This document shows, piece after piece, positions 28,401 to 34,400 of a DNA stretch of 64,000 bases (positions are counted from its first letter, which is position 1; each line of letters opens with the position of its first letter). The position numbers are program-made. The stretch comes from Zootoca vivipara (taxonomy: Eukaryota). The DNA is taken from positions 3,906,001-3,970,000 of the forward strand of contig NC_083277.1 in the NCBI RefSeq assembly GCF_963506605.1. The letters are read 5' to 3'.

Positions 28401-31400
28401 TTGAGACGTTTGGGGCATTTAAGTTTGTGAATGAATGGGTTCCTGCAGTGATTTGAGGTGAGCAGGTTTTAAGGTGTGAAGGTATGCTGACCTTGCAAGT
28501 GGGAAAGCAAATTCTGTATTGTCTTTTTGCTTTTGCAAACTCCTTTTTGGGTGAAGATCAGGGTGGATTTTATTTAAATCATGATTTAAATCACTAGTCA
28601 GTAAAATTTGATTTAAATCTTTTTTTTTACAGAAAGACTCCTTCTTGCTTGTATCATCTTAATATTGACAACCAAAGGAAGGTTTCATTTTTGGAATAAA
28701 AAATTTTCAGAGTAGGTTTTTTACAGTTATATAAAAAATTACTGATTTGGTTATACTATTAGAAATACATAGACAGATAATTATGAAATTATGACGAGGT
28801 TTAATAAGTTAACTGTTTATATTTGGACAATGCCAGACTTGTTAGGAAAACTCAGCAATAAGGGAGAAGAGTCTAGCCGCTCTAATACTTGTATTATTAA
28901 ATCTCAGAGGAAAAAAGTGAGGCCATCAACTTTTTCGAAGTGGAAGCTGGAAAATCCGTGGCTGGAAATGTTTGCTGATGTTATGATATGCCTCGTCTGC
29001 AAAGAATTTGCACGGGCCGAGGATACGAGTTTCGTAAAAGGCTGCGCAACATTCAAGATTGAAACGGTGAGTTTATATTTATATTCTGCAAATACAATTT
29101 GCCAAATTTGTTAAACTTCCCTAAACAGATGTCTTCTAAAAGTCAGATAGTTGTTTATTACTTAACTGTCCAGGGTTCCTTTACCTTTTCCTTTTACCTA
29201 CAATAATCTCTAATTCCTTCTGTCGCTCATAGTTCAAATATCATACTATAATATTTCTTTAAACAGTCCGAAAAAGGCTTCCATTCTTCCATAAAACAAC
29301 CATCATTAAGCTGTCTTATTTTAGCTGTTAACTTTGCCAATTCAGCATAGTCCATCAGTTTGCTTTTCCATTCTTCTTTGGTGGGAATCTCTTCCTCCCA
29401 TTTTTGTGCAGAAAATATCCTGGCTGCTGTCATTACGTACATAAATAAATGCCCTTCAGCACTGATTCTGAATTGTTTTATTTGGTGTTTTGTTGTTGTT
29501 GTTTAGTCGTTTAGTCGTGTCCGACTCTTCGTGACCCCATGGACCAGAGCACGCCAGGCACTCTTGTCTTCCACTGCCTCCCACAGTTTGCTCAGACTCA
29601 TGTTTGTAGCTTCAAGAACACTGTCCAACCATCTTGTCCTCTGTCGTCCCCTTCTCCTAGTGCCCTCAATCTTTCCCAACATCAGGGTCTTTTCCAGGGA
29701 GTTTTCTCTTCTCATGAGGTGGCCAAAGTATTGGAGCCTCAGCTTCAATACTTGTGAGCACTCAGGGCTGATTTCCGTCAGAATGGATAGGTTTGATCTT
29801 CTTGCAGTCCATGGGACTCTCAAGAGTCTCCTCCAGCACCGTAAATCAAAAGCATCAATTCTTCGGCGATCAGCCTTCTTTATGGTCCAGCTCTCACTTC
29901 CATACATCACTACTGGGAAAACCATAGCTTTAACTATACGGACCTTTGTAGGCAAGGTGATGTCTCTGCTTTTTAAGATGCTGTCTAGGTTTGTCATTGC
30001 TTTTCTCCCAAGAAGCAGGCGTCTTTTAATTTCGTGACTGCTGTCACCATCTGCAGTAATCAAGGAGCCCAAGAAAGTAAAATCTCTCACTGCCTCCATT
30101 TCTTCCCCTTCTATTTGCCAGGAGGTGATGGGACCAGTGGCCATGACCTTGGTTTTTTTGATGTTGAGCTTCAGACCATATTCTGCACTCTCCTCTTTCA
30201 CCCTCATTAAAAGGTTCTTTAATTCCTCCTCACTTTCTGCCATCAAGGTTGTGTCATCTGCATACCTGAGGTTGTTGATATTTCTTCCAGCAATCTTAAT
30301 TCCGTCTTGGGATTCATCCAGTCCAGCCTTTCGCATGATGAATTCTGCATATAAGTTAAATAAACAGGGAGACAATATACAACCTTGTCGTACTCCTTTC
30401 CCAATTTTGAACCAATCAGTTGTTCCATATCCAGTTCTAACTGTAGCTTCTTGTCCCACATAGAGATTTCTCAGGAGACAGATGAGGTGATCAGGCACTC
30501 CCATTTCTTTAAGAATTTGCCATAGTTTGCTATGGTCGACACAGTCAAAGGCTTTTGCATAGTCAATGAATTTGGTGTTTTAATGTGCTGTAAACAGCTA
30601 CGAGATTAATTTTATTATATGAAAGTGGTATATGAATAATAATAATAGTGTGATGCAGCAGTAAAGAAAAGCTAATGCTGTTCTAGGCTGCATCAATAGA
30701 CCACACTTGGAATACTGTGCCCAGTTCTGGGCGCCACAATTTAAGAGGGATATTAACAAGGTGGAACGTGTAGAGGAGGGCAACTAGGATGATCAAAGTT
30801 TTAGAAGCCAAGCCTTATGAGGAATGCTTATAGCAGCTGGGTATTTTTAACCTAGAAAAGAGGAGACAGAGAGGAGATACGATAGTCATCTTCAAATATC
30901 TTAAGGGCTGTCACACAGAGGGGGGAGAATGTTTGTTTTCTCCTACTCTGGAGGGTAGGACTCAAACGAACGTCTTCAAGTTGCAAGAAAGGAGATTCCA
31001 ACTAAACAGCTGGAAAAACTTTCTTACAGTAAGAGCTGTTTGGTTGTGGAACAGACTCCCATGAGAGGTGGTGGACTCTCCTTCCTTGGAGGTTTTAAAG
31101 TAGAGGTTGGATGGCCATCTGCCATGGATGCTTTAGTTGAGATTCCTGCATTGCAGGGGGTTGGACTAGATGACCCTTGGGTCCCTTCCAACTCTAAGAT
31201 TCTGTGATTCTATAATAACAAATTTCATTTTTGTTTCCTTTTCAGATTAAAAAACACGGTGCATCTGCTACTCACCAAAAAGCTTGCCGTGCTCAATTAG
31301 CCAGGTTGAATCCAGTGTCCACACCAGTATCGGTCCCAACGGTGCAGGAATTAAGAACGATGGACAGCAATTTGCACAGTAACTTGGAGAAGCTGTTCAA

Positions 31401-34400
31401 TACGGCATACTTCATTGTCAAGGAGAACTATTCGTTTGACGACTTCCCGGCGTTATGTGCACTGCAGAAGAAAAATGGCTTGATAGTGGGTGAGACGTAC
31501 AGGAACGACAAAGCGGCCAAGCAGTTTGCTCATTACATTGCGGAAAGCCTTCGCCTGGAGCTCAAGTACAAACTGAGTAAAGCAAATTTCTTTGGGATTT
31601 TGGCTGACGGCTCAACGGATAGATCGAACGCAGCGGCTTCCGAGATTGTTTACTTTTATTATATAAATGAAGCTGAAGTGAAATGTAGTTACGGAGCCCT
31701 TAGGGAATGTCCTAGTGAGAATGCAGCAGAAGTGAAGTCTACCATCGAGTCGGTTCTCGACGAATACATACCCGATTGGAAAAGCAAGCTGACGGCAATC
31801 AGTTTCAACGGGGCTAGCGTCGATACGGGCAACGCGTCTGGGGTTGCGAAATTGTTCCAGGACAGCTGTCCAGGTCTGGTGGCCGTGCACTGTGTCGCTC
31901 ACCAACTGGAGCTTGCGATAGGGGATGCCTTGAAGTGCGTCAAATTTGCCGGGCTCGCCGAAGATGTCGTGAAGGGTATCTACACCTTTTACCACAGTAG
32001 TCCTAAAAGGGCAAAGGAGCTGAAAGAGATCGGCGAAGTCCTGAATGAGAAAGTGCTTCGCCACATGGGTATCACCGGAATCAGGTGGCTGCAGTCGAAG
32101 AACTCTGCCGTGAAAGCTTTGGCCAACAATCTGCCCGTAGTTGTGGTGCATTTGCAGCAAATTGTGAGCAGCTCTAGCACAAAGCCAGACAGGAAGGTGG
32201 AAGCCAAGCTGAAGGGCTACTTGAAGCGTTTGAAGTCGGAACGGTTTGTCAAGTTTTTGTTTTTCATGGACGACGTTACGCACACGCTTACGAGGCTATC
32301 CGAGGTGTTTCGGAGGAAGTGTGTGTCCGTCAGCGATGTTAAAACCAGCTTGACGGCGACGAAAGAGAGGCTGCAGAGGATGGTGAAAGACAGCGGCCCT
32401 CAGCTGCAAAAGTTCGAAAGTGCCGCGCAGCTGGAGGGCAGCGTGTTAGTGTACAAAGACGTGGAAATTGTCAGTAACGCGAGCGAAGTTGGCTGCTTTG
32501 AGGAAGACCGGCGTGTCTTGCTGAGTTCAATCGTGGAAGCGATCGACAAATGGTTTGACCGCATCGGAAACGACAGAGTTCTGCGAAACGTGGAAATATT
32601 TGACCCCTGCAACATACCCAGACCAGAAAGGGACACGTCTGCAAGTGGCCATGGAGAGAAAGAATTGAGCGAACTAATGCAAGCCTTGCCCAGCAACGTG
32701 AGAGTCGACAAGGAAGCCATCTTGGAGGAGTATCAAGAGTTCAAAGTGTGGGCTATCAACAAGACAAGCATCACGTGTGAAGAAGCTTGGCAACGCCTTC
32801 AAGCAGAGTCAACGGCTTCTGCTTCGTATATTAATATATGCAAAGTTTTGAACTTTTTACGGGTACTCCCACTTAGCACTGCCGAATGCGAGAGGGGGGT
32901 TAGCCAACTAAACTTGGTTAAAACTGACAGTCGCAAACGCCTGCTTGCAACGACCATTGATGACTTACTGATGATCAAGATGAATGGTCCAGACCTAGAG
33001 ATTTTCAATGCTGCAAATGCAGTTAATTTGTGGTGGAACGATGTTGCCAGGGGGCGCATTAGAAGACCCCACTTTAAAAACAAAGACTAGGGTATTTTAA
33101 AAACTGAAGTGTGGTCCCAATATTTTTATTGTACTGTATAAACAAACAGGTAAGTGTGATTTATTCATACGCCTTTTTAAACAAACTTTGCAGGTTTTTT
33201 TGTCCTTGTCACAGAACTCATAACAAATTGATAGTAATCTTGGCAAATAAATTAGTGTTACAGGTTACCGTAATAATAGCTGCCACCTTCTTGTAATTGG
33301 TTTATCGCTTTAGCATAAGGCAGGGCCGAAAATAGGTTTTTTGTCACCTGGGTCAAAGGCCCAGTTTGGTCCCCTGCCTCCCGGATGTGTGTTTGCGTAC
33401 ATACACATACAAATAAAAATAAACACACAAACACATCAACACATTTATTCTTAAAGGGCATAAAAAGTAGGCAGTATATCATTTGAATACAAAGGAATTC
33501 TAAGAAGTATTATGACTGTATTGCCAAAGGGCCAATGAGCATCCCTTTCAGTAAAAGCAAATTATTTGTCAAAAGTTCCATGTGCAGCAATTGTCTATCT
33601 GAGGTCAGGTTTTGAATTGGATTTATTTGGTCACAGGATCATTAAAAGACTGCATTTCCATAAGATCAGCCAAGACCCTCTGGTTTCCTTTTAAAATGCT
33701 CCCCCCCCTCGTTGCGGCTTTTTGCCACCCACCCTTCTTATTGGTTCTGTGCAAACCCTTTCAAGGAGTTTTGACGTGTGAATTTACTCCTGAGTAAGCT
33801 TCAACAAGCTGGACCATGAAGAAGGCTGATCGCCGAAGAATTGATGCTTTTGAATTATGGTGCTGGAGGACTCCCTTCAGAGACCCATGGACTGCAAGAA
33901 GATCAAACCTATCCATTCTGAAGGAAATCAGCCCCGAGTGCTCACTGGAAGGACAGATCCTGAAGCTGAGTGCTCACTGGAAGGACGGATCCTGAAGCTG
34001 AGGCTCCAATACTTTGGCCACCTCATGAGAAGAGAAGACTCCCTGGAAAAGACCCTGATGTTGGGAAAGATTGAGGGCAGAAGGAGAAGGGGACGACAGA
34101 GGACAAGATGGTTGGACAGTGTTCTCAAAGCTACGAACATGAGTTTGACCAAACTGCGGGAGGCAGTGGAAGACAGGAGTGCCTGGCGTGCTCTGGTCCA
34201 TGGGGTCACGAAGAGTCAGACACGACTAAACGACTAAACAACAAGCTTCAACAATATTCCTTTCAAAATCTTTGGGATTACTCATTTTAGGAAATGATAA
34301 TTTTGTGGTCATTTTAGGTTCCATGTAAGGTGAAAAATGCTTTTTGCGAGTCTAAAGTAGAAAGTACCCTTCCGTTACAATCCTAATGGAGCCGGGCTGA

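What the first reader, a model, noticed from the sequence alone, without database searches (positions are those of the whole stretch)
28837..33090. G3 transposase looks domesticated: catalytic D-to-N change, intact ORF, TE-filled intron
Seen: the second catalytic Asp motif reads SFNGAS (expected xxDGAS), while DGSTD, CVAH, RW and CER persist. The 2.2-kb intron splitting the TTF finger holds L2, L1, BovB and CR1 fragments, yet 614 codons downstream are stop-free, and no TIR pair was found. Inference: old enough to collect several intronic insertions while the coding frame stayed under selection for a non-catalytic role.
Basis: partly seen in the sequence, partly recalled or inferred. Interest (0 to 1): 0.75.

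Follow-up and report, generated by a model that had tools for sequence, protein, structure and literature searches.

The report
KRAB-fused, catalytically dead hAT transposase gene
A lizard gene was built by splicing the repressor (KRAB) exons of a zinc-finger gene onto an old hAT transposase that has lost a catalytic residue, a known route by which jumping genes become host regulators.

Summary
Exon 6 (31246-33090) is a stop-free 614-codon hAT-transposase core reading SFNGAS where 35 of 35 relatives outside the orthologue group read D-G-A. The other key residues persist. A 2,179-bp GT..AG intron (29067-31245), full of retroelement pieces, splits the zinc finger. No TIR pair exists.

Three lacertid proteins that NCBI names "ZNF862-like" (95-96% identical) show a six-exon gene starting at 24020. 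It has a KRAB box (24335-24461), a repeat-rich linker exon, then an acceptor at 28908 inside the old transposase leader. Directly after the exon-4 donor lies a frameshifted, truncated C2H2 finger relic (27760-27914). This is the fossil of the parental KRAB zinc-finger gene.

So this is a host-transposase fusion of the kind catalogued by Cosby et al. It most likely acts as a DNA-binding KRAB repressor without cutting activity.

D-to-N is shared by all four orthologues. A 70%-identical paralogue keeps D but has lost the R of the RW motif.

The core differs 3.6-4.1% between species, against 14-17% in the linker exons, which suggests constraint. A codon-model dN/dS could not be run because no lizard DNA was available. 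This is a new member of a known kind, of moderate interest.

The parts
24020..24094 (+). Exon 1: ATG plus 25 codons, donor gtaagg
   Evidence: tblastn of orthologues P0001/P0002. Sequence and splice sites read. Identical to the orthologues at 19-24 of 25 residues.
24335..24461 (+). Exon 2: KRAB A box
   Evidence: Pfam PF01352 KRAB, E 5.5e-21, 74.4 bits against a cut-off of 20.4. 41 of 42 residues identical to each of the 3 orthologues. AG/GT sites present.
26667..26744 (+). Exon 3: short linker exon, phase 1 to 1
   Evidence: tblastn, splice sites and phase. 20-22 of 25 residues identical to the orthologues.
27280..27713 (+). Exon 4: repeat-rich acidic linker, derived from the 5' part of a KRAB-ZNF finger exon. 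It ends at a donor (gtatgt) 46 nt before the finger relic.
   Evidence: tblastn. Tandem repeats of period 75 and 87 nt. Collinear with the neighbouring gene's finger exon: 27537-27902 aligns to residues 16-145 of the 40575-41528 exon, E 1.9e-13. A 25-residue unit is present or absent between species.
27760..27914 (+). Fossil C2H2 zinc fingers (about 1.5 fingers, frameshifted and truncated) inside intron 4
   Evidence: Read: the first finger is split between two reading frames, and the second breaks off after its two Cys. tblastn with the 40575-41528 finger exon gave 27762-27902 at 47% over 47 aa, E 5.4e-7. There is no further finger DNA between 27930 and 37064.
28773..28907 (+). Open in-frame leader upstream of the exon-5 acceptor, with ATGs at 28791 and 28830.
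   Evidence: 45 stop-free codons are not significant on their own: my arithmetic gives a chance of about 0.1.
28908..29066 (+). Exon 5: first half of the transposase zinc finger (TTF / zf-C17orf113 type)
   Evidence: Pfam PF25431, E 1.1e-4, profile positions 2-41 of 63, below the cut-off alone. Orthologue P0001 scores above the cut-off across the junction (35.3 bits against 29.5). 51-53 of 53 residues identical to the orthologues. The acceptor (ctcag) and donor (gtgagt) were read.
29067..31245 (+). Intron 5 (2,179 bp) filled with retroelement fragments: an RT-bearing BovB-like piece at about 29490-30580 (minus strand), a CR1/L2-like piece at 30644-31219 (plus strand), and a possible L1 piece at 29227-29502 (minus strand)
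   Evidence: RVT_1, E 1.1e-25. Other copies within the window. The element names are from recall, and the L1 name has no support.
31246..33090 (+). Exon 6: second half of the finger plus the whole hAT transposase core and C-terminal dimerisation region; 614 codons and TAG
   Evidence: 8,207 relatives at E <= 1e-3. AlphaFold pLDDT 85.9. The top 11 PDB matches are all Hermes chains, E 1e-10 to 4e-8. Dimer_Tnp_hAT E 7.7e-4, 19.6 bits, below the cut-off of 21.4.
31807..31809 (+). Codon AAC = N188, at the family's invariant second catalytic Asp (equivalent to Hermes D248)
   Evidence: The Hermes motif VTDRGAN was seen, and the key residues are listed in PMC6027215.
31606..31608 (+). D121, the first catalytic Asp, retained
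   Evidence: D in 39 of 39 rows; lies in strand 116-123 of the model.
32083..32088 (+). R280-W281 (equivalent to Hermes R318-W319), retained
   Evidence: R in 36 of 39 rows (the three S rows are the paralogues), W in 38 of 39.
32890..32892 (+). E549, the catalytic Glu (equivalent to Hermes E572), retained
   Evidence: E in 39 of 39 rows. The family profile aligns its ERGFS to Hermes SERTFS at E 3e-8.
33246..33251 (+). AATAAA, a candidate polyadenylation signal 156 nt after the stop codon
   Evidence: Its role is inferred.

Best explanation
G3 is the 3' part of a six-exon host-transposase fusion gene (24020-33090, 905 codons by summed exon lengths). It lies in a KRAB zinc-finger gene cluster of a lacertid lizard.

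Likely history: a hAT transposon of the DUF4371 / 'ZNF862-like' branch came to lie in or just behind the finger exon of a KRAB-ZNF gene. A donor in the pre-finger linker (27714) then became spliced to an acceptor just inside the transposase ORF (28906-7). The C2H2 array decayed to a 1.5-finger fossil, and the transposon lost its ends.

The product carries a KRAB box, a repetitive acidic linker, the transposase's own zinc finger, and a complete but catalytically disabled RNase-H-like core with its dimerisation region. The catalytic triad reads D-N-E instead of D-D-E.

Most likely function: a sequence-specific transcriptional repressor. The transposase finger and core bind DNA, possibly relics of the cognate transposon, and KRAB recruits co-repressors. 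No cutting or joining of DNA is expected.

What is shown and what is inferred:
- Shown: the exon structure, the domains, the D-to-N change and its sharing by four species, the fossil fingers, the absence of TIRs, and stronger conservation of the core than of the linker exons.
- Inferred: loss of catalysis, DNA binding, repression, and the order of events.
For: Gene structure:
- Three independently annotated orthologues (906-931 aa) carry KRAB plus zf-C17orf113 and are 95-96% identical to exon 6.
- Their N-terminal parts map to window exons that have canonical GT/AG sites and matching phases at all 5 introns.
- KRAB scores E 5.5e-21.
- KRAB is precomputed for only 3 of the 58 hits, namely the lacertid orthologues.

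Parental gene:
- C2H2 fossil at 27760-27914, E 5.4e-7.
- Exon 4 is collinear with a neighbour's finger exon, E 1.9e-13.
- Further KRAB exons lie at 14173, 39361, 46188 and 49472, and finger arrays at 2-1618, 18691-19392 and 40575-41528.

Transposase origin:
- Hermes is the best structural match (TM 0.49-0.67, E down to 9.5e-11).
- The family profile hits the Hermes C-terminus at E 3e-8.

Dead site:
- N at position 188 in 4 of 4 orthologues, against D in 35 of 35 other rows.
- N188 directly follows strand 182-187 in the model.
- Hermes D180, D248, R318, W319 and E572 are named as essential in PMC6027215 (passage).

Immobility: no TIR pair was found.

Constraint:
- The core differs at 22-25 of 613 residues, against 23-28 of 167-192 residues in exons 1+3+4 (Fisher p 2.8e-5 to 6.8e-8).
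- Exon 5 is 51-53 of 53 identical and KRAB 41 of 42.

Mechanistic precedent: Cosby et al. (preprint 10.1101/2020.05.07.082677; abstract and passages) report:
- at least 94 such fusions;
- KRAB fusion is prevalent;
- 23.4% of the transposases are hAT;
- the parental transcript is sometimes lost.
Against: - No transcript data were available. The exon joins rest on splice-site reading and on three computational gene models from other species.
- A roughly 28-residue exon present in those models was not found in the window.
- dN/dS was not computed.
- Substitutions among the four orthologues avoid family-conserved columns only weakly (Mann-Whitney p 0.042). 4 of the 42 most conserved columns vary against 37 of 572 others, including G189R and G199E beside the active site. 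Constraint on the core is therefore not the transposase's old constraint, and it could be weaker than the identity figures suggest.
- The linker exons used as a yardstick may themselves evolve faster than neutral.
- The equivalence of N188 with Hermes D248 rests on motif, order and secondary structure, not on a significant pairwise alignment or a superposition. The only profile alignment of that neighbourhood scored -1.0 bits.
- All four orthologues have a new Asp five residues on (D193, where the family has N in 24 and M in 8 of 32 rows). Its distance to the metal site could not be measured.
- Genome copy number is unknown.
- DNA binding and repression are untested.
Confidence: 0.72

Rival explanations
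1. One reading: a stand-alone, two-exon domesticated transposase of 693 codons that starts at the ATG at 28830 and has no host domain. The KRAB joins in the database models would be annotation artefacts or minor isoforms.
For: The frame is open from 28773, with ATGs at 28791 and 28830 upstream of the acceptor. The paralogue has a KRAB-less model that starts inside the finger (P0005). No RNA evidence was seen here.
Against: Three species' models all use the same QPTP|RKKV junction. The window keeps a good acceptor (tattaaatctcag) and matching phase. KRAB is 41 of 42 identical across species, whereas the neighbouring exons 1 and 3 differ at 4-24% of residues. 45 open codons are expected by chance about 1 time in 10 (my arithmetic).
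Confidence: 0.12
2. A dead, immobile hAT copy that is simply decaying. The frame would be still open and the orthologues alike only because the species are close, and the gene models would stitch it to a nearby KRAB pseudogene.
For: dN/dS was not measured. Substitutions hit family-invariant columns as often as others (4 of 42 against 37 of 572). 7 of 54 highly conserved family columns are replaced in the whole clade.
Against: Four lineages all keep 614 codons open, with only 1-3 gap columns between them, all in frame. The core is about four times better conserved than exons 1+3+4 of the same gene. The stem branch of the clade (0.13) is long compared with the tips (0.006-0.024), so the copy is far older than the species split yet still intact. 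The intron has taken up at least two retroelements while the exons took none.
Confidence: 0.1
3. Still a working nuclease or transposase. Asn188 or the new Asp193 would serve as the metal ligand, so the protein keeps a DNA-cleaving role (a domesticated recombinase rather than a repressor).
For: D121, C216/H219, R280-W281 and E549 are all retained. D193 is a lineage-specific gain close to the lost Asp. The whole core, not only the DNA-binding finger, has been kept.
Against: The Asp is invariant in 35 of 35 other family members. From recall, Asp-to-Asn at a DDE position abolishes catalysis in the enzymes tested. Residues next to it drift in single species (G189R, G199E). There are no transposon ends.
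Confidence: 0.04

Closest known systems
KRAB-transposase host-transposase fusion (HTF) genes, e.g. KRABINER (Cosby et al., preprint 10.1101/2020.05.07.082677; abstract and passages read)
   Same: KRAB exons of a zinc-finger gene are spliced to a transposase through an acceptor at the start of the transposase ORF. The parental finger array is no longer used. The predicted role is a repressor targeted by the transposase's DNA-binding part.
   Different: KRABINER derives from a mariner element in bats. Here the element is a hAT of the DUF4371 / ZNF862-like branch, in lacertid lizards. The whole core is kept with a D-to-N change. The parental C2H2 array survives only as a fossil, so there can be no alternative parental isoform. 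Podarcis and Lacerta occur 0 times in the preprint's main text, and its supplementary tables could not be seen.
Mammalian ZNF862, listed as a hAT-derived domesticated gene with 7 coding introns in PMC3257199 (Table 1 and passages read)
   Same: KRAB plus TTF-type finger plus hAT transposase core. NCBI names the lizard orthologues 'ZNF862-like'.
   Different: Orthology is not shown. No protein of 1,076-3,070 aa matched (weak evidence). The nearest relatives outside Lacertidae are at most 51% identical and carry no KRAB. The fossil C2H2 fingers point to a local origin of the fusion, separate from mammalian ZNF862. That human ZNF862 has two KRAB boxes is from recall.
Hermes transposase of Musca domestica (PDB 4D1Q, 2BW3, 6DWW, 8SJD)
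   Same: Same fold (TM 0.49-0.67), the same order of motifs, and the same C-terminal E-containing helix.
   Different: 12-14% identity. The position equivalent to D248 is Asn. There is a KRAB fusion, no transposon ends, and an intron-split finger.
Lacertid paralogue annotated as 'nucleolar complex protein 2 homolog' isoforms (P0004-P0006)
   Same: 69-71% identical and the sister clade with 100/100 support. It has an acceptor at the same place in the finger (the host part joins directly at IRKHGAS).
   Different: It keeps the Asp (SFDGAG) but has R-to-S at the RW motif. 14 of 54 conserved family columns are replaced, against 7 for G3. It is joined in the models to NOC2L exons, not to KRAB.

Membership tests
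hAT superfamily transposase (protein) | RNase-H-like core with a large helical insertion domain, as in the Hermes fold | tested here: met
   AlphaFold model with pLDDT 85.9 and pTM 0.81. The top 11 PDB matches are all Hermes chains, E 9.5e-11 to 4.1e-8, TM 0.49-0.67.
hAT superfamily transposase (protein) | C-terminal hAT dimerisation region (PF05699) | tested here: inconclusive
   The window protein scores 19.6 bits, below the cut-off of 21.4, E 7.7e-4. Relatives P0007 and P0011 pass at 36.6 and 34.6 bits. The family profile hits the Hermes C-terminus at E 3e-8.
hAT superfamily transposase (protein) | Complete DDE triad plus the R-W pair (Hermes D180, D248, R318, W319, E572; PMC6027215) | tested here: not met
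   D121, R280, W281 and E549 are present, but position 188 is N.
Active hAT transposon (element) | Terminal inverted repeats flanked by an 8-bp target duplication | tested here: not met
   154 inverted pairs were found in 27700-35500. The longest ones are retroelement copies, and none brackets the coding unit. The one 16-nt AT-rich pair (27727/33559) would enclose the host's finger fossil, so I rejected it.
Host-transposase fusion gene (Cosby et al.) | Host-domain exons and transposase exons in one reading frame joined by splicing | tested here: met
   There are 5 GT..AG introns with consistent phases, summing to 905 codons plus a stop. The same joins appear in 3 of 3 orthologous models. Transcripts themselves were not available.
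Host-transposase fusion gene (Cosby et al.) | Purifying selection on the transposase part (dN/dS < 1) | not testable with these tools
   No lizard DNA collection was available. Proxy only: the core differs 3.6-4.1% against 14-17% in the linker exons, and avoidance of conserved columns is weak.
Host-transposase fusion gene (Cosby et al.) | Shared by several species at one locus | tested here: inconclusive
   Orthologous proteins exist in 3 named lacertids, and they form a clade with 100/100 support. Synteny could not be checked.
ZNF862 orthologue | Descent from the same fusion event as mammalian ZNF862 (phylogeny and synteny) | not tested
   No named mammalian ZNF862 sequence was obtained. The search for longer proteins found nothing. 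Unnamed long representatives were not used.
KRAB C2H2 zinc-finger protein | KRAB box | tested here: met
   PF01352, E 5.5e-21.
KRAB C2H2 zinc-finger protein | Array of C2H2 fingers in the coding sequence | tested here: not met
   Only an intronic, frameshifted and truncated relic remains at 27760-27914.

The most novel reading that the evidence does not exclude
This is an independent, lacertid-lineage birth of a KRAB-hAT regulator, not an orthologue of mammalian ZNF862. It has been caught with the fossil of the C2H2 array it replaced still in its intron. Its sister copy was captured by a different host gene (NOC2L) through the same transposon-borne acceptor inside the zinc finger. Each copy has disabled catalysis by a different hit (D188N here, R280S there). 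That would be a natural replicate experiment: one transposase lineage domesticated twice, with the D-to-N change marking the switch from enzyme to KRAB-tethered DNA binder.
Probability: 0.4. Interest if true: 0.55.

Novelty: new member of a known kind. Interest (0 to 1): 0.35.

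Why it matters
Transposase capture is an established route to new vertebrate transcription factors. Few cases still show the wreck of the parental DNA-binding exon beside the new one. Few also come with a sister copy that took another host partner and another inactivating change.

If the fusion is lineage-specific, lacertid genomes offer a compact system for several questions:
- How a transposase finger takes over from a C2H2 array.
- What such a repressor binds.
- Whether loss of the catalytic Asp is a precondition for keeping a whole transposase core in a host gene.

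For annotation, it corrects the gene's extent (24020-33090, not 28837-33090). It also warns that the name 'ZNF862-like' is a family resemblance and not shown orthology.

Tried and rejected
- phmmer of exon 6 against PDB sequences found no transposase (best hit E 0.45, an unrelated dehydrogenase). Only the family profile and the fold search reached Hermes.
- hhalign of the family against the window's second hAT-like ORF aligned only the C-terminus (probability 5.6%). It could not serve as a bridge for the two Asp positions.
- A residue-by-residue superposition on Hermes was not possible. The fold search prints no alignment, model coordinates are not exposed, and the Hermes sequence is not a stored protein, so I did not type it.
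- Pfam did not report DUF4371 for the window's protein.
- The search for longer (fused) relatives found nothing.
- The roughly 28-residue exon of the database models was not found in 26745-27279.
- TIR candidate I25 (27727/33559) was rejected as AT-rich chance. It would enclose host finger DNA.
- No continuation of the finger exon was found downstream of the transposase, so no target-site duplication could be sought.
- The test of whether substitutions avoid conserved columns gave only p 0.042, with non-significant Fisher tests.
- The Atlas look-up of the putative L1 piece gave only unnamed clusters scoring at most 0.84.
- Literature searches for this lizard fusion found nothing specific.
- The exons were never joined into one protein. 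All searches were exon by exon, so no search or fold of the full spliced product was made.

Full report
**What is at the coordinates**

The window is lizard DNA, not human. The best protein matches to the long ORF are three named lacertid proteins (Lacerta agilis, Podarcis raffonei, P. muralis), each 95-96% identical. The window holds no N.

- The ORF 31219-33090 contains a strong acceptor (ttgtttccttttcag) at 31245/31246. After it come 614 sense codons and a TAG.
- Upstream, the frame 28773-29114 carries the first half of a C-x2-C zinc finger and ends at a gtgagt donor at 29067.
- The intron between them is 2,179 bp and phase 0.
- In orthologue P0001 the Pfam zf-C17orf113 match runs across the KIET|IKKH junction (residues 258-313, 35.3 bits against a cut-off of 29.5). 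The window's exon 5 alone covers profile positions 2-41 of 63.

**The motifs**

In exon-6 numbering, DGSTD starts at 121, SFNGAS at 186, CVAH at 216, RW is at 280-281 and CER at 548-550.

I aligned the window's exon 6 with 38 of the 58 hits. I dropped 20 hits with low coverage (74% of the query or less): P0020, P0022, P0034, P0041-46 and P0048-58. In this 39-row alignment A2:
- D121, S123, D125, C216, H219, E549 and R550 are invariant.
- W281 is present in 38 of 39 rows and R280 in 36 of 39.
- Column 188 is N in 4 rows (the window and its three orthologues) and D in the other 35.
- The codon is AAC, one transition away from GAC.

**Is residue 188 the catalytic Asp?**

- The AlphaFold model of exon 6 (39-row alignment, pLDDT 85.9, pTM 0.81) finds Hermes transposase chains as its top 11 PDB matches (E 9.5e-11 to 4.1e-8, TM 0.49-0.67).
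- In the model D121 lies in strand 116-123, and N188 directly follows strand 182-187. From recall, these are the places of the first two carboxylates of an RNase-H-like DDE site (on beta-1 and after beta-4).
- The family profile aligns its ERGFS to Hermes SERTFS at E 3e-8. Counting in the full-length chain puts that Glu at 572.
- (the window's other hAT-like ORF against the PDB) printed the Hermes segments TIDLWT and VTDRGAN. Chain positions 105 and 173 plus an offset of 75 give D180 and D248.
- PMC6027215 (one passage read) names D180, D248, R318, W319 and E572 as the essential Hermes residues.
- The family motif D-G-A-S-V-N resembles Hermes D-R-G-A-N, and it follows the same helix. The only profile alignment of that neighbourhood scored -1.0 bits.

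The equivalence of N188 with D248 is therefore well supported by motif, order and predicted structure. It is not supported by a significant pairwise alignment or a measured superposition, which I could not make.

**The gene is larger than the finding**

The orthologues are 906-931 aa and carry a KRAB box. tblastn of P0001 and P0002 on the window and reading of the DNA give six exons:

| Exon | Coordinates | Content |
|---|---|---|
| 1 | 24020-24094 | ATG |
| 2 | 24335-24461 | KRAB, E 5.5e-21 |
| 3 | 26667-26744 | short linker |
| 4 | 27280-27713 | repeat-rich linker |
| 5 | 28908-29066 | first half of the finger |
| 6 | 31246-33090 | rest of the finger plus the transposase core |

- All five introns are GT..AG with consistent phases. 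The exon lengths sum to 2,718 nt, which is 905 codons plus a stop.
Every search and alignment was done exon by exon, so the full spliced protein was never searched or folded.
The open frame 28773-28907 may be the transposase's former leader, but 45 open codons are not significant.
- A roughly 28-residue exon present in the three database models was not found in the window.
- Exon 4 holds tandem repeats of period 75 and 87 nt. One 25-residue unit is present in the window and P. raffonei and absent in L. agilis and P. muralis.

**A fossil of the parental gene**

- Forty-six bases after the exon-4 donor, the intron contains about one and a half C2H2 fingers. The first is split between two reading frames. 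The second breaks off after its two Cys, at about 27900.
- tblastn with the finger exon of the neighbouring gene (40575-41528) matches 27762-27902 at E 5.4e-7. It also aligns 27537-27902, the end of exon 4 plus the relic, collinearly to that exon's residues 16-145 at E 1.9e-13.
- Exon 4 is therefore the pre-finger part of a KRAB-ZNF finger exon.
- The window is a KRAB-ZNF cluster, with further KRAB exons at 14173, 39361, 46188 and 49472 and finger arrays at 2-1618, 18691-19392 and 40575-41528.
- No continuation of the fingers lies between 27930 and 37064, so no target-site duplication could be sought.

**Mobility**

Among 154 inverted pairs in 27700-35500, the long ones are retroelement copies (29496-29892 with 33807-34244; 31161-31220 with 34514-34574). 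None brackets the coding unit. The 16-nt AT-rich pair 27727/33559 would enclose host finger DNA, so I rejected it.

**The intron**

- A 358-aa ORF on the minus strand (29503-30579) is a reverse transcriptase (RVT_1, E 1.1e-25). Its 3' end recurs at least 9 times in the window at 86-94% identity.
- The stretch 30644-31219 has more than 10 other copies at 75-93% identity.
- In all, 1,103 of 2,179 intron bases have another copy in the window.
- The names BovB, CR1 and L2 are from my recall of the encoded motifs. The L1 label for 29227-29502 got no support.

**Selection**

Codon-model dN/dS could not be run, because no collection offered here holds lizard DNA. The available evidence is as follows.

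- *Conservation by exon.* All four orthologues keep the 614 codons open, with 1-3 in-frame gap columns between them.

| Segment | Differences from each orthologue |
|---|---|
| Core (exon 6) | 22-25 of 613 residues (3.6-4.1%) |
| Exon 5 | 0-2 of 53 |
| KRAB | 1 of 42 |
| Exons 1+3+4 | 23-28 of 167-192 residues (14-17%) |

  The core against exons 1+3+4 gives Fisher p 2.8e-5 to 6.8e-8. If the linker exons evolve near-neutrally, the core is about four times slower.
- *Age.* In the tree (19 rows) the clade's stem is 0.13, against tips of 0.006-0.024. The copy is therefore much older than the species split.
- *Against a simple picture.* The 41 of 614 variable columns avoid family-conserved columns only weakly (Mann-Whitney p 0.042). 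4 of the 42 most conserved columns vary, against 37 of 572 others. These include G189R in P. raffonei and G199E in P. muralis, beside the active site. 7 of 54 highly conserved family columns are replaced in the whole clade: A58V, S117G, G162E/D, D188N, Q356R, R436W and F552V.

This pattern fits a protein kept for fold and DNA contact but released from catalytic constraint.

**The paralogue**

- P0004-P0006 are annotated as isoforms of 'nucleolar complex protein 2 homolog'. They are 69-71% identical and form the sister clade with 100/100 support.
- They keep the Asp (SFDGAG) but have S for the R of RW. 14 of 54 conserved columns are replaced.
- In two of the models, host residues join directly at IRKHGAS, the same point as the window's exon-6 acceptor.
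- A 50%-identical unnamed relative (P0007) has residues reading like a translated acceptor just before the same point. I infer that the acceptor in the finger is older than the two lacertid copies.

**Explanation**

The anatomy matches the three-step model of Cosby et al. (preprint 10.1101/2020.05.07.082677; abstract and passages read). [quoted passage not shown]

Those authors report at least 94 fusions, note that KRAB fusion is prevalent, and find hAT to be 23.4% of the transposases. Their main text does not mention Podarcis or Lacerta (0 occurrences each), and their supplementary tables were not visible to me.

Mammalian ZNF862 is listed as a hAT-derived gene with 7 coding introns in PMC3257199 (Table 1 and passages). 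Orthology of the lizard gene to it is untested:
- KRAB is precomputed for only 3 of the 58 hits.
- Nothing outside Lacertidae exceeds 51% identity.
- The search among 1,076-3,070-aa proteins found nothing (weak evidence).

I conclude that G3 is a KRAB-tethered, catalytically disabled hAT transposase, most likely a sequence-specific repressor. From recall, KRAB recruits TRIM28, and Asp-to-Asn kills DDE enzymes. Binding and repression are inferences.

**Verdict**

The gene start is wrong, and two of the four repeat names could not be verified.
- This is a new member of a known kind, of moderate interest. The finger fossil and the differently captured, differently disabled sister copy are the most useful particulars.

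Noticed in passing
window 54199-56010 (+): A second hAT-like ORF of 603 aa without stops, with canonical-looking motifs (ADCWT, TTDNGCN, TRW, AAERLF). phmmer hits Hermes at E 9e-6 in three collinear stretches. Pfam gave no family at E <= 0.01. It could be a young transposon copy or another domesticated gene.
   Followed up: partly
window 59885-64000 (+): Long gag-like (59885-61141, 418 aa) and pol-like (60991-63999, over 1,003 aa, running off the window) ORFs with protease, RT and integrase-type motifs. This looks like a largely intact LTR retrotransposon. The motifs were judged by eye only.
   Followed up: no
window 2-1618 (-), 14173-14361, 18691-19392, 39361-39480, 40575-41528, 46188-46367, 49472-49558: The window is a cluster of KRAB C2H2 zinc-finger genes. 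There are three finger arrays and four further KRAB or KRAB-adjacent exons besides those of G3.
   Followed up: partly
proteins P0004-P0006 (other lacertids; not in the window): The sister paralogue of G3 is annotated as isoforms of NOC2L. About 135 N-terminal host residues join directly at the equivalent of the exon-6 acceptor, and a 622-aa isoform starts inside the finger. It may be a second, independent host-transposase fusion or an annotation read-through.
   Followed up: partly
window 27351-27611 (exon 4): Tandem repeats of period 75 and 87 nt encode an acidic motif of about 25 residues. One unit is present in the window and P. raffonei and absent in L. agilis and P. muralis, so the copy number changes between close species.
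   Followed up: partly
window 31822-31824 (D193 of exon 6): In the four orthologues the lost Asp (D188N) is accompanied five residues later by a gained Asp, where the family has N (24 of 32) or M (8 of 32). It looks like a swap of D and N within the motif, and it is unexplained.
   Followed up: partly
window 29490-29620 and copies at 2763-3003, 7423-7550, 18008-18135, 39772-40270, 46487-46844, 33807-34244: The 3' end of the RT-bearing (BovB-like) element recurs many times at 86-94% identity, often as short pieces. This suggests a SINE or truncated-LINE family sharing that tail.
   Followed up: no
window 29126-29159, 23636-23669, 15245-15278: A 34-nt stretch in intron 5 recurs at 100% and 97% identity at two other places in the window, one of them about 350 nt upstream of G3's exon 1. 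Its nature is unknown.
   Followed up: no
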